Shown here piece after piece: positions 1,089-45,372 of a stretch of 45,372 nucleotides of DNA; position 1 is the first letter of the stretch, and each line of letters starts with the position of its first letter. The notes under the pieces were generated by a model, which saw only the letters and a program-made list of their open reading frames with translations, had not been told where the DNA came from and searched no databases. The DNA is from an uncultured virus (IMG/VR IMGVR_UViG_2061766007_002010) (lineage: Duplodnaviria > Heunggongvirae > Uroviricota > Caudoviricetes). The stretch is taken from IMG/VR virus record IMGVR_UViG_2061766007_002010. One strand, written 5' to 3'. A program made the translations under genes and the position numbers.

Positions 1089-1138
1089 AACAAGATGTAT
1101 AACCTCTTGAATAATATCAATCGTAAATATGCCCAGGA
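1089..1138 (+). repeat. 50-bp exact duplicate of 489-538 (nrdD), flanked by N-gaps; probable scaffolding duplication
   Basis: aacaagatgtataacctcttgaataatatcaatcgtaaatatgcccagga occurs at both places, and both copies end at a gap. Confidence 0.85.
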
Positions 1139-1148
1139 NNNNNNNNNN

Positions 1149-2935
1149 CGCAGCTGATACCGCTACCTATGTAATTAAGGTAACTGATATTAATGAACCG
1201 GTCCATGTTCAAGATACAACTTGTTCTGTAAAGGAAAATTATACTGGTAAGGTTTGCAAGATTATAGCAACTGACGAGGATAAAACAACTCCTAAGTATA
1301 TAATTACCGATACTACAAATTATTCTATCGATTCTACTGGCGTAATTACTATTAAAAACCCGATTGATTATGAAAAGAAGACTAAGGACACGGTAACTGT
1401 TATTGTAACTGATGGTGAATTTTCTGATACAGCACAGGTAATTATCAGAGTTCTTGATGAACCTGAAACAGTCGAGATTACAAAGTGGGATGATGAAAAG
1501 CCAAAAGATACAGTAAAGACAAATGATCCTGACCATAGATTTGAATGGGAACTTTGTGAAGGTGATACTTGTAAAGGTCATATTGAAACACCTCATATCA
1601 AGAAGGACACTGTAATCAAGGTATGTAATGACAAGAAGACAGTATGTGATTCTATCGTAGTATTATTCAATGATGCACCTCCAGTAGTTACATTGACCAA
1701 TGCAAAATCTACAGATGCATTGATTGACTATATTACTATTGAGGAAATCAAGGACGATAAGATTTACGTTAATAAGAAAGAAAATCCAATTACTGTAACT
1801 GTTAAGGACACAGTTCATAAGACGCAAAAACATTTCGAAATTACCGTAAAGCTCGATACTATTCCTACCAAGGATATTAAGATTAAGGAATATAATTATC
1901 TCATTGATGAGACAACCGCTACTTCTACAACAATCGGAAATAACCGTATTGAATTGAAGGAAGTTGTAAAGGTTGATGGTGTAGATATTATACTTACAAA
2001 GGTCATTGATAAACACGGTAATCCAGTAGATACGACACAGACAGTTACTTATACTAAAAAGGTAAATGGTAAGGATGTTACTGTTTCTTATAAGGTTGAT
2101 AATTTGACAGGTCAGAGACTTACAGATTATACCGTTTCTTACAATATCGATTCTTGCACAGCAGTTTCTTATGTAGTTGATGAGAATAAGAAGATTGTAA
2201 AGAACAAGGAAGGAAATATCGGATATACTATTACTTATGATTATACAGATGATTATGGTAATAAAGCTACAGCAAGTGTAGAAATTGTTTATGATGATAT
2301 TCCGCCTAAGGTTGAAATTTCTGAACCAGGTAGTGGACAATCTTATAATACCAATGCAATTCCTGTCAAGTGGACAGTAAATGGTATCGTTCAAGATACA
2401 CTGAATTTACAGAGACTTGAAAAAGGTGTTAACTATGTTATTAGAAGATATGTTGATAAGGCAGGTAACGTTTCTGCTGATACCGTAATGGTTATTATGA
2501 ATGAAGCGAAGGATATTGATATTGAGCTTGTTCATCCAGTAACTATGGTTGACCAGGACAAGGTTGATGAATATTATTCTGAAGGTCACAAGTATAATGA
2601 TAAGAAACCTTATGACGTTAAGTTTGTTGACCCTAAGAATGATACATTACCTGATGTAATTGGTGTTGGTTTCAAGGTCGATATTGTTCTTCCATCTGTT
2701 TCTCCAACTGGTTCTCTTGCAACATTGGATGACATTGTAAAGAATGGTCAGATTCCAGTTGATGATAGAGGTAATATAGTTGGCGCCTCTACGCATGGAA
2801 TTCCAGTAGATAAGTATGTTGAAGAACATTGTACTGAAGAATTCCAGAAGGATTACGATAAGTATGGTTTGAATATTCCGCTTTATGACGTTACTTATAA
2901 ACTTCATCTTTGGGTATATACAACTACCGCAAATT
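1149..2935 (+). CDS. Cadherin/Ig-like repeat surface protein (partial, gap-bounded)
   Basis: Cadherin motifs VTDINEP, ATDED, IDYEK, VTDGEFSDTAQVIIRVLDEPE; Ig-like DDIPPKVEISEP...YVDKAGNVSAD. Thr/Val-rich, Cys-paired segments. Confidence 0.8.
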
Positions 2936-2946
2936 NNNNNNNNNNA

Positions 2947-4947
2947 CATAAGGACGGTCATTTACATATTCATGACCTTAACCAGTATAACTTGACATTC
3001 AACTGTTTATTTGCACCAGTTGGTAAGTTATTGAAAAATGGTTTTGATTCTGGAACCGGTTTCTTGCGTTCTCCGAAATCAATTCAGACCGCTGCTGCTT
3101 TGACAGCTGTTATCTTGCAGCTCCAGTCCAACCAGCAATATGGCGGTATCGCTGATGATAATCTTGATTTTGACTTGGCACCTTATGTAGATATTTCTTT
3201 CAGAAAGAATTTGAAGGAAGAACTTACAAGATATTTGGAATATAATGTTGAACATGAAGATATTGATCTTGAAGAAGTAGAAAATGTTTCTATGAACTGG
3301 CCGGTTGAAGTTCTTTATGTAAAGTTCCCGAAGATTTGTGTAAACAATGCAATTCAGAAAACTGATGACGATACACATCAGGCAATGGAAGGTCTTATTG
3401 GTAACTTGAATTCTTTACAGTCTCGTTCAGGTAATCAGGTTCCATTCAGTTCTCTTAACTTTGGTCTTGATACTTCTAATTGTGGTCGTATGATTAGCAA
3501 GAATCTTATCAAGTCTCAGTATGAAGGTCTTGGTGATGGATTGACTGCTATCTTCCCGATTTTGATTTTCAAGTTGATGAAGGGATATACAAAGAATCCA
3601 GAAGATCCTAACTATGATTTGTATCTCGAATCTATCAAGTGCCTTGCTAGAAGATTCTATCCTAACTTTGTTCGTGTAGACAGTTCTTTCAATGCTCCAT
3701 ATATCAGATATGAAAAGCAAGAACTTGTAATTGATGATGCTATAAACAAGGTTGGTGTTAAGGTTCGTGGTAAGGACGAATTAAAGCTTCTTGATTTGGT
3801 TGACCAGAAGTTTGAAACTCCGATTTATCAGTATGATGTTGGTGTAGGTGACTACTGGGAAGTTAATGAAATTGCTGGACATACATTGAAACTCTCTAAG
3901 CTTATTGAAAATTCTACAGTTTCTACAATGGGTTGTAGAACAAGAGTTCTCGGTAATATTAATGGTGTTGAACAGACAACCGGTAGAGGAAACTTTGCAT
4001 TCCACACAATTAATCTTCCACGTCTTGCAATCGAATCACACATTGCTACAAAGGATGAAGAAGAACGTAAGACACTCTTCTTTGCTAAGCTTGACGAAAT
4101 GCTCGAAGATGCAAAGGGAAGCTTACTTGACAGATTCGCATTGATTTCTAATAAGACTTATGAGAATTTCCCATTCACAATGCAACAGGGTCTTTATTTG
4201 ACATCTGATGACCAACCACATGAAGTAACAGATAAGATTGCTGAAGTTCTTAAGCAGGCTTCTTTGTCTATTGGTTATGTCGGTTTGGCTGAAACTATGT
4301 TGCTCTTGACTGGTAAGACTTATGGTCAGGATCATGAAATCGATGATTATGCATTCTCTATTGTAAAGCATATTCGTGAATTTGTTGATAAGACACAGAA
4401 GGAAACTCATTTGAACTGGTCTTGTTTCGCAACACCAGCTGAAGCAGTTGCCGGTCGTTTTGCTAACATTGATAAAAATCTTTTCCAGAATGAAAAGAAG
4501 CTTTCTGATGTAGATTTACAGAGAGTATTCGGTAAGGGTTATTACACAAATAGCCACATGCTTGATTATTCTTTGGAAACATCTCTTGACAATAAGATTA
4601 AGATGGAAGCTCCATATCACAAGATTACAAATGCTGGTCACATTTTCTATTACAAGTTGAATGGTGACTTGTCCAAGAATCTTGAAGCAGTCAAGGCAAC
4701 TATTGATGCCATGTATGAAGGTGACCTCGGTTATTTCACTTGCACATTTGACAGTGATACCTGCACCAAGTGTCATTTCCATGGAATCATCAATAATGAA
4801 TGCCCATGCTGTGGTAACAAGAATGAAGATGAAATTATCCGTGTAAGAAGAATTACTGGATATTTGACTGGTTCTCCTAAGAAGACTATCTTCAAGTCTT
4901 GGAATGATGGTAAACTTGCAGAATTAAGAGACCGTCACAATATTTAA
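2947..4947 (+). CDS. nrdD: Anaerobic (class III) ribonucleotide reductase, catalytic part
   Basis: HKDGHLHIHDL, TFNC, QVPFSSLNFG, FPILIFK, TMGCRT, TINLPRLA, SIGYVGLAE, ATPAE, YYTNS, Zn ribbon CTKC..CPCCG and the glycyl-radical motif RRITGYL. Confidence 0.95.
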   Translation, partial: HKDGHLHIHDLNQYNLTFNCLFAPVGKLLKNGFDSGTGFLRSPKSIQTAAALTAVILQLQSNQQYGGIADDNLDFDLAPYVDISFRKNLKEELTRYLEYNVEHEDIDLEEVENVSMNWPVEVLYVKFPKICVNNAIQKTDDDTHQAMEGLIGNLNSLQSRSGNQVPFSSLNFGLDTSNCGRMISKNLIKSQYEGLGDGLTAIFPILIFKLMKGYTKNPEDPNYDLYLESIKCLARRFYPNFVRVDSSFNAPYIRYEKQELVIDDAINKVGVKVRGKDELKLLDLVDQKFETPIYQYDVGVGDYWEVNEIAGHTLKLSKLIENSTVSTMGCRTRVLGNINGVEQTTGRGNFAFHTINLPRLAIESHIATKDEEERKTLFFAKLDEMLEDAKGSLLDRFALISNKTYENFPFTMQQGLYLTSDDQPHEVTDKIAEVLKQASLSIGYVGLAETMLLLTGKTYGQDHEIDDYAFSIVKHIREFVDKTQKETHLNWSCFATPAEAVAGRFANIDKNLFQNEKKLSDVDLQRVFGKGYYTNSHMLDYSLETSLDNKIKMEAPYHKITNAGHIFYYKLNGDLSKNLEAVKATIDAMYEGDLGYFTCTFDSDTCTKCHFHGIINNECPCCGNKNEDEIIRVRRITGYLTGSPKKTIFKSWNDGKLAELRDRHNI

Positions 4948-35696: not shown

Positions 35697-35947
35697 GTTC
35701 TACCCAATTATTAAAATTTTTTAATGTCTTTTTAAGTTTCGGTTCAATTTTTGCATTTGTAAAATCAGCTGCATCCATGTGGTCTTTTGCAAGACCTAAC
35801 CATCNNNNNNNNNNNNNNNNNNNNNNNNNNNNNNNNNNNNNNNNNNNNNNNNNNNNNNNNNNNNNNNNNNNNNNNNNNNNNNNNNNNNNNCAAATGTTGC
35901 TATAATACAAAACAATGTTTCCATATTTTATTTCCTTTTAAAGTTAG

Positions 35948-36297
35948 TGGATGCGGGGTGATTCGAACACCCGTCTTAAGCAACTTCAATATCCGTTCCT
36001 ACAAGTTTTCCCTTCGAATTTACTTATTCGTCACACTTATGCCCTGAAGGTCGGCGTCAGTGTAAACTAGCCTGTAAACTTCAGAAATAATACACAGACT
36101 TAATTATTTCCTAATCCATTTGCGACCGAACTCTACACCCAATGGATGAACGGTATAGGTTCAGGGTTGCTATAAATTAAGCAGCCATTGCGTAAGTGTT
36201 AGCACTTATCTTTTTCAGACTTTTTTACAAGAACCCTCGTCTGAGACCTTGACTTGCAACTAATACCTCTGCTACCCAATCGAAACCAGGCGCACCC
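35948..36297 (-). ncRNA. ssrA: tmRNA (about 350 nt) encoding tag ANTYAMAA
   Basis: 5' GGGTGCG-CCT-GGTTTCGA pairs with 3' CGCATCC-A, giving the G3:U alanine determinant. T-arm GGGTG-TTCGAAT-CACCC. Resume context ATAAGT-GCT and tag ORF at 36177-36203. CCA is not encoded. Confidence 0.93.
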
Positions 36298-41516: not shown

Positions 41517-42740
41517 TTAGTCGTGTTCAACACGCCATTTAATGGCACGCTTTAAGAATTCATGGTATTCTTTACTCTTACCCATGAACTTGCCATCATC
41601 ATCAGATACCTTACAAACAGGAATACCGTTAACTTCAGTCAGCTTAATGACCTGATTCATCGGCTTGAACCAACCAGTATCATTAAGTAACCAAGTGCCG
41701 ATACCAAATGCAACCTTACAACGAAGGCTGAAACGCTGATAAATTACTTCTGCCTTTTCAAAATTCAAAGAATCAGAGAATAAGAGTGTTTTATCAGCAT
41801 ATGGCACACCAATCTTCATATAGTGTGCAAGCATTTTTTCACCCCAAGCAATTGGATCTGCAGAATCATGTCTTACACCACCATAGAGGCGTGCGAATTT
41901 TTCGTCAAAATCCTTTAAGAAGCAATCAGTTGTGATACAATCAGTCAAGTAAATACCGTTCTTGGTACCATATTCCTTAATCCAATGCTTCATCATGTAA
42001 AGATTGGAATACGCTGGGTTGTGCTGCGGCAAGCCCTGGCCGACGAGTTCGATAGCTTCATGAGCCATGGTTCCAATCGGCTTAGTACCAAGCAAGAAAC
42101 TAAAATAAACATTGGAAGTTCCAACGAACTTAGTTCCCGGGAACTGGAACTGCATAATATAACGAAGCGCCCATTCTTGGAATTCCTTACAGAATCTACG
42201 ACGGGTACCAAATTCAGAGAATGCGCCAATTTTGATTTCGCCCTTAATAAGCTTATCAACCTTAGCAATAAATTTCTTCTTGGCATCTTCGATAATCTGT
42301 TTCTGTTCTTCCGGAGTATAGCTCATACGGAACCAAACTTCAGAAACAATAGACATAACTGGAACTTCGTGATAAGAAACATCTACGTTATAACCGCGGA
42401 AATGAATTTCAGGTTGTTCTGTCTTTTCATCATAAACACAAGTAATTTCGTCGCGTTCAATAGTATATCTTTGAAGGAATCTTACATAGTCTTCTTTAAT
42501 ATGGTCAATTCGCTTGAAATTTTCCAATTCCCAAGGAGTATAACGAAGTTTAGCATAAAGGTCAATTTGATAATTGATTTCATCAATCATCGCANNNNNN
42601 NNNNNNNNNNNNNNNNNNNNNNNNNNNNNNNTCCATTCAACCTTCATGTCATGAAACTGATGTACGAACATCTGACCCATTGTGTACTTATAATAGTCAT
42701 TATCCGTAAGGTTAGTAATAATTTGTGGTAAATGTGCCAT
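41517..42740 (-). CDS. pncB: Nicotinate phosphoribosyltransferase
   Basis: TDNDYYKYTMGQ, SEFGTRRR, GTSNV, PIGTMAHE (phospho-His motif), GVRHDSADP, FSDSL, FGIGT, KVSDDDGK. Confidence 0.93.
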   Translation of the reverse strand: MAHLPQIITNLTDNDYYKYTMGQMFVHQFHDMKVEWXXXXXXXXXXXXXAMIDEINYQIDLYAKLRYTPWELENFKRIDHIKEDYVRFLQRYTIERDEITCVYDEKTEQPEIHFRGYNVDVSYHEVPVMSIVSEVWFRMSYTPEEQKQIIEDAKKKFIAKVDKLIKGEIKIGAFSEFGTRRRFCKEFQEWALRYIMQFQFPGTKFVGTSNVYFSFLLGTKPIGTMAHEAIELVGQGLPQHNPAYSNLYMMKHWIKEYGTKNGIYLTDCITTDCFLKDFDEKFARLYGGVRHDSADPIAWGEKMLAHYMKIGVPYADKTLLFSDSLNFEKAEVIYQRFSLRCKVAFGIGTWLLNDTGWFKPMNQVIKLTEVNGIPVCKVSDDDGKFMGKSKEYHEFLKRAIKWRVEHD

Positions 42741-42799: not shown

Positions 42800-43018
42800 C
42801 TAGGCAGTCACATCGAATTTAATCATTGACATTAGTGTTCTAACAATAATATCCATATTTTCTTTTGTGACAGGTTTATTGATTTTTCTTAACACGTCTT
42901 CTGCTAATGAGTAGATTTGTTTTTCTGACGCACCGTCTGCTACTGCTACCAAATCTTTCCATGCTGTTGTTAAATCAATAAAATCTGATGTATTATATTT
43001 TTCTGGAATCTTATACAT
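42800..43018 (-). CDS. Hypothetical protein
   Basis: 72-aa ORF, last gene of the radical-SAM operon. Confidence 0.6.
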   Translation of the reverse strand: MYKIPEKYNTSDFIDLTTAWKDLVAVADGASEKQIYSLAEDVLRKINKPVTKENMDIIVRTLMSMIKFDVTA

Positions 43019-43019
43019 G

Positions 43020-43478
43020 TTATTTCCGCAATATGGTTATTTCTTTTTCATTTATTATGTTTTGTCTTAGGACATTAAATCCGTTTTTCTTTGCTACTTT
43101 TGCATAGTCTCGATAGTTGTCTGCAATAAAAATTTCTTTTCTTGGGATTACGTAACGATACCAAAGATTGTCGAGACAAAAGTTAGCAAAATAATTTGTT
43201 TTGTTACAGTCTATTATTTCAATTATTCCATCTTTTTTCAAATATTTAAAAAGACTNNNNNNNNNNNNNNNNNNNNNNNNNNNNNNNNNNNNNNNNNNNN
43301 NNNNNNNNNNNNNNNNNNNNNNNNNNNNNNNNNNNNNNNNNNNNNNNTTTTCTTTAATAATGTAATCTAGTTGTGGTAATCCAGTAATATCTGCGGTTTT
43401 ATAACCTTTTGCTGGATTATAACCAGAACCTATATCAATGCATAGGTTTTGAGTCGATGAAATCCTTGAGTGCTTCAT
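43020..43478 (-). CDS. Class I SAM-dependent methyltransferase-like protein (central gap)
   Basis: Motif I-like CIDIGSGYNPAKGYKTADI and post-motif LFKYLKKDGIIEII. Confidence 0.65.
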   Translation of the reverse strand: MKHSRISSTQNLCIDIGSGYNPAKGYKTADITGLPQLDYIIKEXXXXXXXXXXXXXXXXXXXXXXXXXXXXXXXSLFKYLKKDGIIEIIDCNKTNYFANFCLDNLWYRYVIPRKEIFIADNYRDYAKVAKKNGFNVLRQNIINEKEITILRK

Positions 43479-44277
43479 AGTCTAAGTCCTCATAATCGGC
43501 AGAACTATAAGTTTTATTTAATTCAGAATTTCCAATCTTTTTACAATATTGCTCCCATTTACAGAAATTTCCAACAGGAGTAATAATAATATCGGTCGCA
43601 TCATAACCAGTATAATTGCCGAACACACCGAATTGATGACTTTCACCTGCTTCGTCTTTCCAGATATAGTCATAAAAATTACAACCATCATCTTTGACCT
43701 TGGATGTTCCCATCTTGTCTTGGAAATCGAAATCAGAGTAACGACCCATTAAATCTTCACAGACAACCACATAAAAATTGTCTATAAGACATGCCTTTAA
43801 AAGTTCAACAAGTTTATCACCTGTGCTTTCTTTACACTTAGGAATATTTAATCTTGTATTTGGAATGTATTTCTTACAAAGCAATGCTTGGTCACGACGT
43901 CTTGCATACTGTTCAATAGAAGAAACAGAAATTGCAACTTCAGTCAAACCAGCTTCAGCATAAGATTTAATTCTTTCCTCATCCAAAAGAATACCATTAG
44001 TTACTAAGCAGACATCTTCAGAAACATGTGCTCTTACTGCTCTAATAATATCTGGTAAATCTTTTCTAATTGTAGACTCACCGCCCATAATTGTAGCACG
44101 TTTGAGAATACCAACTTTATCCATTGTAGAAATGGCTTTAGTCATGTCAAGTTGCAATGGTTCCTTTAACGGTTGATAACAGAAATAACAGTTACCATGA
44201 GGACCAGTAGACTCATTCATGTTACAATTAAGGTTAGTGATAACCCTATATCTGAATATGCTTTTCTTTACAGCCAT
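43435..44277 (-). CDS. Radical SAM enzyme with atypical CX11CX2C motif
   Basis: TNLNCNMNESTGPHGNCYFC, TIMGGESTIRKDL, LVTNGILL, AGLTEVAISV (MoaA-like core). Confidence 0.85.
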   Translation of the reverse strand: MAVKKSIFRYRVITNLNCNMNESTGPHGNCYFCYQPLKEPLQLDMTKAISTMDKVGILKRATIMGGESTIRKDLPDIIRAVRAHVSEDVCLVTNGILLDEERIKSYAEAGLTEVAISVSSIEQYARRRDQALLCKKYIPNTRLNIPKCKESTGDKLVELLKACLIDNFYVVVCEDLMGRYSDFDFQDKMGTSKVKDDGCNFYDYIWKDEAGESHQFGVFGNYTGYDATDIIITPVGNFCKWEQYCKKIGNSELNKTYSSADYEDLDYEALKDFIDSKPMH

Positions 44278-45068
44278 TAGACTAAATTAATTCCTTCAAT
44301 GACGCCATCGCCCATTCCATTGGCTTCAGAGACTTCATTCTTATTAATAGGAGAGAGTTTAATGAAGAAATGTTCCTTATCAAAATACTTTTCAAGAAGA
44401 TTTAAATCAAAGTCGTTTTCGTCGACAAGAGTCATATTAACAGTTGTCTTTAAATTAGACTCTGTTCTAATCTGACCAAGTTCTTCAAGTGTCATTTTGT
44501 TCTTATAAGGAATTAACCAATTTCTATGGTCTTCATCAAAAGAATGCAAAGAAATCTGAAGAGTAACATTGCCCTTAATCCAGGAGAAATCAGTTCCCTT
44601 TACACCGATGGTAGAAACATAAATATGAACATTCGGGTATTTTTCCTGCAAGATTTTTGCTGCTCTTTGAACTTCTTCCCAGTTCAATGCAGGTTCACCC
44701 ATTCTGGTCATATTGACCTTAAATTCTTTACACTTATTAGTATCGATTTCAGGATGAAGATTTCTAATCCAGTCAACCTGTTCAACCATTTCTTCTGCGG
44801 TCAAATTGCGATACTTTGCTTTCATATTGCCCGTTGCACAGAATTTACAACGAACAGGACAACCTGACATGCAAGAAATACCAATCATCCAGCGTTCCGT
44901 TCTATCGCCAAGCTCATAGTTATTGAGCTTGTTCTGCTTCTTACCGATTGCATCTTTGGTATAGAAGGGAAGGAACGTATCTGTAGATTCAATCAGTTTA
45001 CCGTCTTCTAATGCAAAACAATAAACCGAGCCGTTTGCAAAATCACGATGTTTCTTTTCTATAAGCAT
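44277..45068 (-). CDS. RlmN/Cfr-like radical SAM protein lacking the C-terminal AACGQL segment
   Basis: ISCMSGCPVRCKFCATG, RNLTAEEMVEQV, RMGEP, VSTIG, LQISLHS..E..RNWLIP, KLSPIN. Ends without the second catalytic Cys motif. Confidence 0.85.
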   Translation of the reverse strand: MLIEKKHRDFANGSVYCFALEDGKLIESTDTFLPFYTKDAIGKKQNKLNNYELGDRTERWMIGISCMSGCPVRCKFCATGNMKAKYRNLTAEEMVEQVDWIRNLHPEIDTNKCKEFKVNMTRMGEPALNWEEVQRAAKILQEKYPNVHIYVSTIGVKGTDFSWIKGNVTLQISLHSFDEDHRNWLIPYKNKMTLEELGQIRTESNLKTTVNMTLVDENDFDLNLLEKYFDKEHFFIKLSPINKNEVSEANGMGDGVIEGINLV

Positions 45069-45082
45069 GCCAGGTTTTCCTT

Positions 45083-45220
45083 TTACTTTGTTTCGTTTTG
45101 AACTTCAAGAATAGTAGCAAGTTGGCCACATGCGGCCTGTGCCTTGCGTTCTGCTTCTGTTGCAATGGCTACTGCATAATCATAGCCTGCATGTTCAAGT
45201 TGTGCTTTGATTTTATCCAT
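45083..45220 (-). CDS. 45-aa ORF carrying the RlmN/Cfr C-terminal catalytic motif (not in the ORF track)
   Basis: GAGG RBS; MDKIKAQLEHAGYDYAVAIATEAERKAQAACGQLATILEVQNETK*. Fills the space between pncA and the RlmN-like gene. Confidence 0.85.
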   Translation of the reverse strand: MDKIKAQLEHAGYDYAVAIATEAERKAQAACGQLATILEVQNETK

Positions 45221-45231
45221 TTTTTACCTCA

Positions 45232-45372
45232 TTATTCAATGTCAATCTGACAGCTCTGCATGACTTTGAGTGCTGCTTCATGCAATTCAGGTGTAACGCC
45301 CGCGCAACAATCCTTTACAACGGTAATCTTCATGTTCGGGAACATTGCTCTAAGGATAAGGGCGTTAGAAAT
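45232..45372 (-). CDS. pncA: 3' end of an isochorismatase-family cysteine hydrolase, probably nicotinamidase
   Basis: ISNALILRAMFPNMKITVVKDCCAGVTPELHEAALKVMQSCQIDIE* is a typical cysteine-hydrolase C-terminus. The NAD salvage context suggests PncA. Confidence 0.7.
   Translation of the reverse strand: MSNALILRAMFPNMKITVVKDCCAGVTPELHEAALKVMQSCQIDIE

What the first reader, a model, noticed from the sequence alone, without database searches (positions are those of the whole stretch)
44277..45220. Split, order-permuted RlmN/Cfr-like methylase: the catalytic AACGQL cysteine sits on a separate upstream 45-aa protein
Seen: 44277-45068 has the RlmN/Cfr core (CxxxCxxC-ATG, RNL..EM..QV, MGEP, SLH, KLSPIN) but lacks the N-terminal helical domain and stops before the C-terminal segment. 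The unannotated upstream ORF 45083-45220 has its own RBS, is in a different frame, has no N-gap nearby, and reads ..LEHAGYDYAVAIATEAERKAQAACGQL, which is the missing helix-strand-AACGQL piece. Established: in RlmN the AACGQL cysteine (E. coli C355) is methylated by SAM and forms a transient methylene cross-link to the target adenosine, and a cysteine before the cluster motif (C118, LCVSSQVGC) resolves it. Here that position is Gly (IGISCMSGC), with a Cys three residues later. Inference: this is either a two-subunit RNA methylase with an exchangeable methyl-carrier peptide, or, if resolution is lost, an enzyme that leaves the peptide covalently joined to a nucleobase or RNA. I do not know of a description of either.
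Basis: partly seen in the sequence, partly recalled or inferred. Interest (0 to 1): 0.88.

Follow-up and report, generated by a model that had tools for sequence, protein, structure and literature searches.

The report
Two-piece phage RlmN-like radical SAM enzyme
This gut phage makes a relative of the RNA-methylating enzyme RlmN in two separate pieces, with the key cysteine on a 45-residue peptide and the second catalytic cysteine missing; many phages share the layout, often among NAD-recycling genes, and its chemistry appears undescribed.

Summary
Window 44277-45068 (-) encodes a 263-aa RlmN/Cfr-like radical SAM core. It has no N-terminal RlmN domain and no C-terminal cysteine segment. Window 45083-45220 (-) encodes a 45-aa acidic peptide, which is that missing helix-strand-AACGQL segment. 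The split is not an assembly error: independent public contigs are colinear across it. It is conserved: 131 of 141 related loci, and 12 of 12 further loci, carry the peptide on the same strand. The usual order is enzyme then peptide; this window's lineage has the peptide upstream. In 59 loci a second radical SAM gene and a small methyltransferase lie between the two, and the window holds the same four genes in rotated order. The position of RlmN's resolving Cys118 is Gly in 120 of 120 close homologues. Both the family and a fused sister family carry new basic residues beside active-site motifs. NAD salvage genes flank the pair here and in several unrelated lineages, but not in all. My reading is an obligate two-subunit class-A-type enzyme with its methyl-carrier cysteine supplied in trans. 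The target is unknown, and I think it less likely to be rRNA. This scan noted the same family before on other DNA. I found no paper describing it.

The parts
45083..45220 (-). 45-aa acidic peptide gene. It is the detached C-terminal helix-strand-loop unit of an RlmN-type enzyme. Cys31 (codon 45130-45128) sits in the invariant AACGQL.
   Evidence: ORF; 177 stand-alone peptide clusters; Cys present in 122 of 123 aligned; aligned to RlmN profile 320-353. BLASTP to the C-terminus of fused homologues.
45227..45230 (-). GAGG, Shine-Dalgarno-like, 6 nt before the peptide's ATG
   Evidence: Read. Related loci show GGAG/GGAGG before their peptide ATG.
44277..45068 (-). E1: 263-aa RlmN/Cfr-like radical SAM core. 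Cluster cysteines are C70, C74, C77 (44861-44838). Gly63 (44882-44880) occupies the place of RlmN Cys118. No N-terminal RlmN domain and no C-terminal Cys segment.
43435..44277 (-). E2: second radical SAM protein (280 aa), weakly MoaA/viperin-like. Its start overlaps E1's stop. Homologues sit between E1 and the peptide in 59 related loci.
43020..43478 (-). Small class I SAM-dependent methyltransferase (152 aa; an N run lies inside it). It travels with E2 in the four-gene cassette.
   Evidence: phrog_5399, 2.2e-12
42800..43018 (-). 72-aa ORF of unknown function, seen only in this lineage
   Evidence: found in L005, L006, L011 only
41517..42740 (-). Nicotinate phosphoribosyltransferase (PncB type), downstream flank of the cassette
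   Evidence: NF003704 385.9 bits, cutoff 379; TIGR01514 326.2 bits, cutoff 269.55
45232..45372 (-). 3' end of an isochorismatase-family, nicotinamidase-like gene, cut by the window end; upstream flank of the cassette
   Evidence: PF00857, 28.3 bits. The full 193-aa gene in the 96%-identical locus L005 has nicotinamidase/pyrazinamidase as best NCBIfam match, at 40.6 bits, below its cutoff of 174.

Best explanation
E1 and the 45-aa peptide are the two subunits of one class-A-type (RlmN/Cfr-type) radical SAM enzyme.

Shown:
- The peptide is the homologue of the C-terminal helix-strand-loop unit that carries RlmN's methyl-carrier Cys355.
- E1 ends exactly where that unit would begin.
- The two genes are separately translated and co-inherited across very distant phages.
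- Gene order between them is free, and other genes can lie between them.

Inferred:
- The peptide's strand (YDYAVAI) docks on the edge of E1's sheet and places Cys31 next to SAM at the cluster.
- Cys31 is S-methylated by one SAM. A 5'-deoxyadenosyl radical from a second SAM abstracts a methyl hydrogen. The thiomethylene radical then adds to an sp2 carbon of the substrate.
- The resolving Cys is replaced by an invariant Gly and no other non-cluster Cys is conserved. Release of the product must therefore use another base, or it does not happen (see rivals). Candidates for that base are family-specific residues such as Asp30 or the new Arg122 and Lys237 environment.

My odds:
- Two-subunit enzyme with the Cys in trans: about 0.8.
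- A catalytic cycle that releases the peptide: about 0.55.
- Target is a nucleotide-type small molecule linked to NAD metabolism (adenine or pyridine ring of NAD, NaAD, NMN or ADP-ribose): about 0.35.
- Target is rRNA or tRNA: about 0.2.
- Other target: the rest.

In this window and 59 related loci the pair works alongside a second radical SAM enzyme and a small methyltransferase. Their steps are unknown.
For: Homology and fold.

End point of E1: 0 of 120 closest homologues (mostly 260-263 aa) carry an AACGQL-type segment, and at least 104 of 120 end in the same xxN[LI][VIL] tail.

Co-inheritance:
- The peptide is on the same strand in 131 of 141 loci and in 12 of 12 further loci.
- In the phage collection, the 8 records with the peptide are exactly the 8 best records for E1.

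Separate translation: among 54 distinct adjacent pairs the E1 stop is TAA in 46. The frame offset is 0 in 9 pairs, 1 in 12 and 2 in 33. Gaps run from -47 to +59 nt, and several pairs have GGAG sites.

Strong constraint on the peptide: 14 invariant positions in 39 sequences.

Loss of the resolving Cys: Gly in 120 of 120 split homologues against Cys in 36 of 36 RlmN. The only Cys conserved in 45 E1 sequences are the three cluster ligands.

Remodelled residues shared with the fused sister family: R122 (Gly in RlmN), Q171 (Ala), N211 (Glu), K/R237 (Asn), plus inserted D30.

NAD context:
- The window cassette lies between a nicotinamidase-like gene and a NAPRTase that passes its cutoffs.
- NAD genes lie within 2.5 kb in 10 of 141 loci.
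- NMNAT-Nudix and/or NAMPT directly flank E1 and the peptide in 6 of 11 scanned loci of an independent set.
- NARP2 is reported in about 1.1% of phage genomes (passage in 10.1101/2024.02.11.579819).

Not a misassembly: DNA contigs of two other studies (11.6 kb and 4.1 kb) are colinear over 43348-45372, and locus L005 has the same order.
Against: The peptide's similarity to RlmN itself is weak: 7.0 bits. It was invisible in PDB searches. The homology rests on the fused intermediates and on position.

The NAD link is not universal. There was no NAD gene within 2.5 kb in 131 of 141 loci. There was no NAPRTase-family gene anywhere in 3 of 5 whole records carrying the pair: Kehishuvirus tikkala, Moorella phage MTATph1 and a 222-kb contig. 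I ran no formal control for neighbourhood enrichment.

I could not verify in 3D that the substituted residues line the active site, because no coordinates were available to me.

The review passages say Cys118 is indispensable in RlmN, so a releasing mechanism without it is conjecture.
Confidence: 0.55

Rival explanations
1. It is a two-piece but otherwise ordinary RNA adenine C-methylase. The pair methylates C2 or C8 of an adenosine in host or phage rRNA or tRNA, as RlmN and Cfr do, and is released by an unidentified base.
For: The closest sequence and fold relatives are RlmN and Cfr. RNA-repair and tRNA genes occur near some members: RtcB, RNA ligase, a Trp/Tyr-tRNA synthetase fragment, and an RNA ligase and tmRNA in this window.
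Against: The N-terminal domain that the named RlmN proteins carry (PF21016) is absent. The resolving Cys is absent. The peptide is strongly acidic, and E1 plus peptide has a net negative median charge, against a core pI of 8.4 for RlmN. Residues next to the SAM and substrate motifs differ from RlmN at positions that RlmN keeps invariant. The score of 74.8 bits is far below the family cutoff of 290.
Confidence: 0.2
2. It is a consumable-peptide cross-linker. With no resolving residue the reaction stops at the adduct. The 45-aa peptide stays joined through S-CH2 to its target base or ring, one peptide per event.
For: RlmN C118A accumulates exactly such an adduct (titles of 5HR6 and 5HR7; review passages). 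Gly replaces that Cys in 120 of 120. A separate small gene allows the peptide to be made in excess of the Fe-S enzyme. Vibrio phage D479 encodes two tandem copies of the peptide in one ORF.
Against: The fused sister family also lacks the Cys at that position (Thr in 81 of 81). There a stuck adduct would kill the whole enzyme, so some release route probably exists; that family does have Cys two residues later in 85%. In the fused model the helix-strand part is confidently packed (pLDDT 92-97), which suggests a stable subunit rather than a loose reagent. No experiment bears on it.
Confidence: 0.15
3. It is RiPP-like maturation. The peptide is the substrate, and E1 (with E2 and the methyltransferase where present) modifies it into a bioactive peptide.
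For: A small conserved Cys peptide lies next to one or two radical SAM enzymes and a methyltransferase. D479 has a two-repeat peptide.
Against: The peptide is homologous to an integral structural unit of the enzyme fold. It has no separate leader and core parts and is conserved along nearly its whole length. No protease, exporter or RiPP recognition element was seen among the 199 neighbours scanned.
Confidence: 0.07
4. It is an artefact: a misassembly, a frameshifted pseudogene, or a chance small ORF.
For: The window contains N runs and ends 150 nt beyond the peptide gene.
Against: Independent contigs from other studies are colinear with no indel in either gene. The same order is seen in L005. 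There are 177 peptide clusters and more than 2000 E1 homologues. The peptide is upstream here, so no read-through or frameshift could join the two.
Confidence: 0.01

Closest known systems
RlmN (23S rRNA A2503 / tRNA A37 C2-methylase; TIGR00048; PDB 3RF9/3RFA, 5HR6/5HR7, 6FZ6)
   Same: Radical SAM core with CxxxCxxC, MGEP, SLH and xLxPxN motifs and the N-terminal beta extension. It is the best fold match (Z 22.8). The AACGQL methyl-carrier cysteine motif is present, on the peptide.
   Different: There is no N-terminal domain. The C-terminal Cys unit is a separate polypeptide. Cys118 is replaced by Gly. Family-specific R122, Q171, N211 and K237 replace RlmN-invariant G, A, E and N. The score is 74.8 bits against a cutoff of 290.
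Cfr (23S rRNA A2503 C8-methylase; TIGR04432/NF000424; PDB 9P0P)
   Same: Same class A fold and two-SAM logic.
   Different: A weaker match (about 50 bits against cutoffs of 530-550; Z 16.1), with the same missing features as for RlmN. Nothing here suggests antibiotic-resistance activity.
RlmN C118A mutant (PDB 4PL1/4PL2, 5HR6/5HR7)
   Same: It lacks the resolving cysteine. By the review passages, that variant arrests as a covalent Cys355-CH2-adenine adduct.
   Different: That is an engineered single-chain mutant acting on tRNA. Here the loss is natural, is to Gly, is invariant across the family, and is combined with the Cys on a separate peptide.
Uncharacterised fused short RlmN-like proteins (P0318 family, about 320-360 aa; some records labelled Peregrinibacteria, Patescibacteria or Deltaproteobacteria)
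   Same: They have no N-terminal domain and share R122, Q171, N211 and K/R237. Their C-terminal segment is 43% identical to the window peptide.
   Different: They are single chains. The Cys118 position is Thr, with Cys two residues later in 85%.
Phage NAD+ reconstitution pathway 2 (NAMPT + NMNAT) and Preiss-Handler salvage genes
   Same: These genes directly flank E1 and the peptide in this window and in several unrelated lineages.
   Different: The two NARP papers I searched never use the word 'radical' in their main text. E1 and the peptide are not part of any described NAD pathway, and 3 of 5 whole phage records with the pair have no NAPRTase-family gene.

Membership tests
RlmN (TIGR00048 equivalog) | Whole-protein score at or above the curated cutoff (290 bits) | tested here: not met
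   74.8 bits, profile positions 102-244 of 355 only
RlmN (TIGR00048 equivalog) | N-terminal accessory domain (PF21016, carried by the named RlmN proteins) | tested here: not met
   Only PF04055 was found in E1. The model begins at RlmN residue 79. The named RlmN proteins carry PF21016.
Class A radical SAM methylases (RlmN/Cfr) | CxxxCxxC cluster motif in a single radical SAM domain with the RlmN-type fold | tested here: met
   C70, C74 and C77 are invariant. Z 22.8 to 3rf9_A, well above the next family at 12.9.
Class A radical SAM methylases (RlmN/Cfr) | Methyl-carrier cysteine (E. coli C355) in the same chain | tested here: not met
   E1 ends before it. The motif is on the separate 45-aa peptide, so it is met only in trans.
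Class A radical SAM methylases (RlmN/Cfr) | Second conserved (resolving) cysteine (E. coli C118), 7 residues before the cluster motif | tested here: not met
   Gly63 here. Gly in 120 of 120 close homologues against Cys in 36 of 36 RlmN. No other conserved non-cluster Cys.
Class A radical SAM methylases (RlmN/Cfr) | Methyl transfer to an sp2 carbon through an S-methylcysteine intermediate | not testable with these tools
   Needs anaerobic reconstitution and mass spectrometry.
RiPP precursor plus radical SAM maturase | Leader/core peptide architecture with a recognition element, protease or exporter nearby | tested here: inconclusive
   None was seen among 104 + 95 neighbour proteins scanned against Pfam. 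The peptide is conserved end to end. Absence of a hit is not proof.
Phage NAD+ salvage operon (NARP2 or Preiss-Handler type) as an accessory member | Consistent co-location with NAMPT/NAPRTase, NMNAT, nicotinamidase or NadE | tested here: inconclusive
   Present in the window, in 10 of 141 loci and in 6 of 11 scanned loci. Absent from 3 of 5 whole records.

The most novel reading that the evidence does not exclude
The peptide is a genetically encoded, consumable methylene cartridge. E1 has no resolving residue, so it leaves the acidic 45-aa peptide joined through S-CH2 to the adenine or pyridine ring of an NAD-type nucleotide or NAD-derived immune signal. Alternatively, with E2 and the methyltransferase, it builds a ring-methylated 'private' NAD that bacterial NAD-degrading defences cannot use. 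Either way it would be a radical-SAM arm of phage counter-defence that sits beside NAD reconstitution genes.
Probability: 0.12. Interest if true: 0.95.

Novelty: new variant of a known kind. Interest (0 to 1): 0.78.

Why it matters
By the review passages I read, class A radical SAM methylases are defined by two cysteines in one chain, and only RlmN and Cfr are named there as their members.

This family is large: more than 2000 homologues at E<=1e-10, and 177 peptide clusters. It spans crAss-like and other phages of Bacteroidota, Firmicutes, Vibrio and Pectobacterium. It also turns up on contigs binned with candidate-phyla bacteria and with small archaea of the Woesearchaeota and Nanoarchaeota kind.

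It keeps the methyl-carrier cysteine but moves it to a separate 40-45-residue protein, and it has lost the resolving cysteine. That makes two questions directly testable. Can the RlmN mechanism run with its carrier loop in trans? How is the covalent intermediate released without Cys118, or is it released at all?

The repeated placement among phage NAD salvage genes, themselves known counter-defence tools, points to a target other than the ribosome and possibly to a new layer of the NAD arms race.

A naturally split enzyme with a 45-residue catalytic peptide would also be a convenient system for isotope and mass-spectrometry work on this chemistry.

Tried and rejected
Complex prediction. I rebuilt the alignment without it. 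So no verdict on binding exists.

Peptide against libraries. No Pfam, NCBIfam or PHROG family matched. No PDB chain matched with the single sequence. With a 30-sequence profile no RlmN chain appeared at E<=10; the 8 hits were all unrelated.

Read-through, frameshift or recoded stop joining E1 and the peptide. Rejected: frames and gaps vary, extra stops lie in the spacers, and in this window the peptide is upstream.

Intron or homing-endonuclease insertion as the cause of the roughly 1.17-kb spacing in 59 loci. Rejected: the spacer encodes E2 and the methyltransferase.

Cys66 as a shifted resolving cysteine. Rejected: not conserved.

BLAST of the window's own NAPRTase, isochorismatase fragment and 72-aa ORF against the 141 loci found them almost only in the window's own lineage. 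The wider NAD link appeared only with Pfam scans.

The P0318-family scan of viral contigs returned no close members of that fused family, only further split members.

E2 and the methyltransferase gave only weak, generic PDB matches.

Earlier-findings look-ups by the peptide sequence and by place returned nothing.

Literature. Six searches found no description of a split RlmN/Cfr-type enzyme or of a radical SAM gene in NARP operons. The library lacks most subscription journals, and bioRxiv supplements such as Table S2 of the NARP preprint were not seen.

RNA-library contigs cover E1 and the peptide. The tool warns that this does not show transcription, so I make no expression claim.
Full report
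**What is in the window.** On the minus strand the genes run in this order:
- the 3' end of an isochorismatase-family gene (45372-45232);
- a 45-aa ORF (45220-45083);
- a 263-aa radical SAM ORF, E1 (45068-44277);
- a 280-aa second radical SAM ORF, E2 (44277-43435), whose start overlaps E1's stop;
- a 152-aa ORF, MT (43478-43020);
- a 72-aa ORF;
- a 407-aa ORF (42740-41517).

The 45-aa ORF has its own ATG with GAGG 6 nt upstream. It lies in a different frame from E1, 14 nt before it.

The window is a phage-like fragment. It holds an anaerobic ribonucleotide reductase gene, an RNA ligase gene and a tmRNA gene. E1's best named relative is in the crAss-like Kehishuvirus 'tikkala', at 65% identity. 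Near-identical DNA occurs in ruminant and other animal gut metagenomes from about ten studies.

**E1 is an RlmN/Cfr-type core that lacks both ends.**
- Pfam finds only the generic radical SAM domain.
- The best NCBIfam model is RlmN at 74.8 bits, far under its 290-bit cutoff. It covers only profile positions 102-244 of 355.
- PDB sequence hits are RlmN and Cfr.
- An AlphaFold model from 45 family members is confident (pLDDT 92.6, pTM 0.90).
- It superposes best on E. coli RlmN: 3rf9_A, Z 22.8, rmsd 2.5 A, 229 residues, model 1-261 on RlmN 79-346. Cfr scores Z 16.1 and the next family, TYW1, 12.9.

So the N-terminal domain is absent; the named RlmN proteins carry PF21016 there. The chain also stops before the Cys355 loop.

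**The peptide is the missing C-terminal unit.**
- An HMM that I built from 32 RlmN proteins places peptide residues 4-39 on profile positions 320-353 of 377, with AACGQL on aacGql. The score is weak: 7.0 bits, E 1.1e-4 for a single comparison. Three other phage peptides fall in the same place.
- Natural fused relatives give the stronger link. In alignment A2 the split proteins end at ...GVIEGINLV. The 347-aa protein P0318 continues from that point with a linker and then a segment that BLASTP aligns to peptide residues 8-44 (43% identity, E 1e-7). P0356 gives E 3e-6.
- The P0318 model (pLDDT 90) has helix 281-293, strand 296-299, helix 303-308, Cys313 and helix 315-321. It superposes on RlmN 80-360, past Cys355, with a higher score than the split core alone (Z 26.6, 267 residues).
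- A Cfr modelling paper describes this region as an alpha/beta/alpha unit extending the sheet edge (passage in PMC2836569).

Results against: the peptide alone, and a 30-peptide profile, did not find RlmN in the PDB at E<=10.

**The split is real, old and under selection.**
- DNA contigs from two other studies (11.6 kb and 4.1 kb) are colinear with 43348-45372 at about 98% identity and have no indel in either gene. A third run bridges the junction between the peptide gene and E1.
- Locus L005, 96% identical, has the same order.
- The large protein collection holds 177 stand-alone peptide clusters of 39-71 aa. It holds 2001 E1 homologues at E<=1e-10. None of the 120 best has an AACGQL-type tail.
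- The peptide is highly conserved: 14 invariant positions in 39 sequences, and Cys present in 122 of 123.
- In GenBank phages, the 8 records that hold the peptide are exactly the 8 best E1 records: crAss-like, Moorella, four Pectobacterium, Vibrio and Yersinia phages.

**Gene order.** In 141 fetched loci the peptide lies on E1's strand in 131:
- Downstream in 127 loci. Of these, 66 are adjacent, 59 lie about 1.17 kb away, and 2 are at other distances.
- Upstream in 4 loci: L005 and L011 (the same contig), L117 and L127.
- Not found in 10 loci. Three of these lack the relevant flank: L006, L065 and L118. Five are relatives that are distant (30-32% identity) or cut short: L137-L141. L013 and L073 are unexplained.

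Twelve further viral loci all have the peptide, one of them upstream.

Among 54 distinct adjacent pairs, the E1 stop is TAA in 46, frame offsets are mixed (9, 12 and 33), and gaps range from -47 to +59 nt. Several pairs have GGAG sites. So the peptide is translated on its own. The upstream position in this window is a lineage-specific rearrangement of the usual order. It has arisen in at least four E1 lineages of very different identity to the window.

**A four-gene cassette.** The roughly 1.17-kb spacer in 59 loci encodes homologues of the window's E2 and MT. Those loci read E1-E2-MT-peptide and the window reads peptide-E1-E2-MT, which is the same set rotated.
- E2 is weakly MoaA/viperin-like and has an unusual spacing of its first cluster cysteine.
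- MT is a small class I methyltransferase.

The minimal conserved unit is still E1 plus the peptide, seen in 64 loci with neither E2 nor MT.

**The resolving cysteine is gone.** Review passages state that class A enzymes use two conserved cysteines. Cys355 carries the methyl group and forms the cross-link, and Cys118 is indispensable for resolving it (PMC9692996).
- Seven residues before the cluster motif, RlmN has Cys in 36 of 36.
- The 120 closest E1 homologues have Gly in 120 of 120.
- The fused P0318 family has Thr in 81 of 81.
- In 45 diverse E1 sequences the only conserved cysteines are the three cluster ligands.
- The split and the fused Thr families share substitutions at positions that RlmN keeps invariant, next to the MGEP, SLH and NLxPxN motifs: R122 for Gly, Q171 for Ala, N211 for Glu, K/R237 for Asn, plus an inserted Asp30.

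That these residues line the active site is my inference from where such motifs sit in radical SAM barrels. I had no coordinates to check it.

**Context points away from the ribosome, but not decisively.**
- The peptide is strongly acidic (median pI 4.25, charge -5.5). E1 plus the peptide is net negative at the median, whereas the RlmN core has pI 8.4.
- The window cassette lies between a nicotinamidase-like gene and a NAPRTase that passes NCBIfam cutoffs.
- Earlier notes of this scan on other genomes had raised an NAD link, so I tested it.
- Of 436 neighbour-protein clusters from the 141 loci, I scanned 104 representatives of clusters seen in at least 2 loci.
- NAD genes (isochorismatase-NAPRTase fusion, NadE, isochorismatase, NrtR-Nudix, NMNAT-Nudix, NAPRTase) lie within 2.5 kb in 10 of 141 loci.
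- In the independent set of 12 loci I scanned 95 of 122 ORFs, leaving out the E1 ORFs and duplicates from L146 and L149. NMNAT-Nudix and/or NAMPT flank E1 and the peptide in 6 of 11 scanned loci. In L142 they abut the pair directly on both sides.
- NARP2 (NAMPT plus NMNAT) is reported in about 1.1% of phage genomes (passage).

Against the link: 131 of 141 loci show no NAD gene within 2.5 kb. Three of five whole records with the pair have no NAPRTase-family gene at all. I ran no formal control. Other neighbours are ordinary phage nucleotide-metabolism, RNA-repair and anti-defence genes, for example a Tad2-like protein in 4 loci.

**How it most likely works.**
- Shown: a two-gene unit in which one gene supplies the barrel and the other the Cys-bearing unit.
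- Inferred: the peptide's strand completes the sheet and presents Cys31 to SAM. S-methylation, hydrogen abstraction and radical addition to an sp2 carbon follow, as in RlmN.
- Unknown: the target, and how or whether the adduct is released without Cys118.

I put about 0.8 on the two-subunit enzyme and about 0.55 on true turnover. For the target I put about 0.35 on an NAD-pathway nucleotide and about 0.2 on rRNA or tRNA. I put about 0.15 on the peptide being consumed as a covalent adduct. The tandem double peptide of Vibrio phage D479 and the separate, potentially over-expressed gene fit that last reading. The fused family that also lacks the Cys argues that a release route exists.

**Novelty.** Six literature searches found no description, and the two NARP papers never use the word 'radical' in their main text. 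The library omits most subscription journals, and I could not see bioRxiv supplements. The scan itself has met this family at least six times on other genomes. My results agree with those notes on the split and the lost cysteine. They add the rotated order seen here. They confirm the NAD link as frequent but not universal.

Noticed in passing
window 35945-36297 (-): A full-length tmRNA gene (Rfam RF00023, 134.5 bits against a gathering score of 47; ARAGORN tag peptide ANTYAMAA) lies in what otherwise looks like phage DNA.
   Followed up: partly
window 43435-44277 (-); L012 3274-4041: The second radical SAM protein, E2, has its first cluster cysteine 11 residues before a CxxC (NLNC-x11-CYFC) instead of CxxxCxxC. 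The same spacing is seen in the L012 homologue. Best matches are weak ones to MoaA and viperin.
   Followed up: partly
L004 3282-3563 (Vibrio phage D479, OZ195776.1): The Cys peptide is tandemly duplicated within one ORF: two nearly identical units of about 30 residues, each with its own AACGQM.
   Followed up: partly
window 43257-43347: An N run of 91 bases inside the methyltransferase gene is replaced by 103 letters in three independent public contigs. Further N runs interrupt the NAPRTase gene (around 42600).
   Followed up: no
L100 1050-2096 and L066, L070, L071: A protein with Tad2-like (Thoeris anti-defence 2) and crAss001_48 domains lies within 2.5 kb of E1 in 4 loci.
   Followed up: no
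L110 148-1896 (also L099, L127, L130, L131): A 582-aa ORF joins an isochorismatase fragment to a full NAPRTase. It sits next to NadE and Nudix genes and the E1-peptide pair.
   Followed up: partly
P0187 (438 aa, 32 contigs): An E1 homologue, 68% identical, carries an N-terminal extension with an HNH endonuclease domain (PF13392).
   Followed up: no
window 1129-4947 (+): A 1272-aa ORF whose best-scoring match to anaerobic ribonucleotide reductase (NrdD) families covers only residues 926-1271; most of the roughly 900 residues before that were not explained.
   Followed up: no
L013, L073: Two loci about 70% identical to the window's E1 showed no peptide within 2.5 kb. L013 holds only part of E2, and E1 in L073 is shortened.
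   Followed up: no
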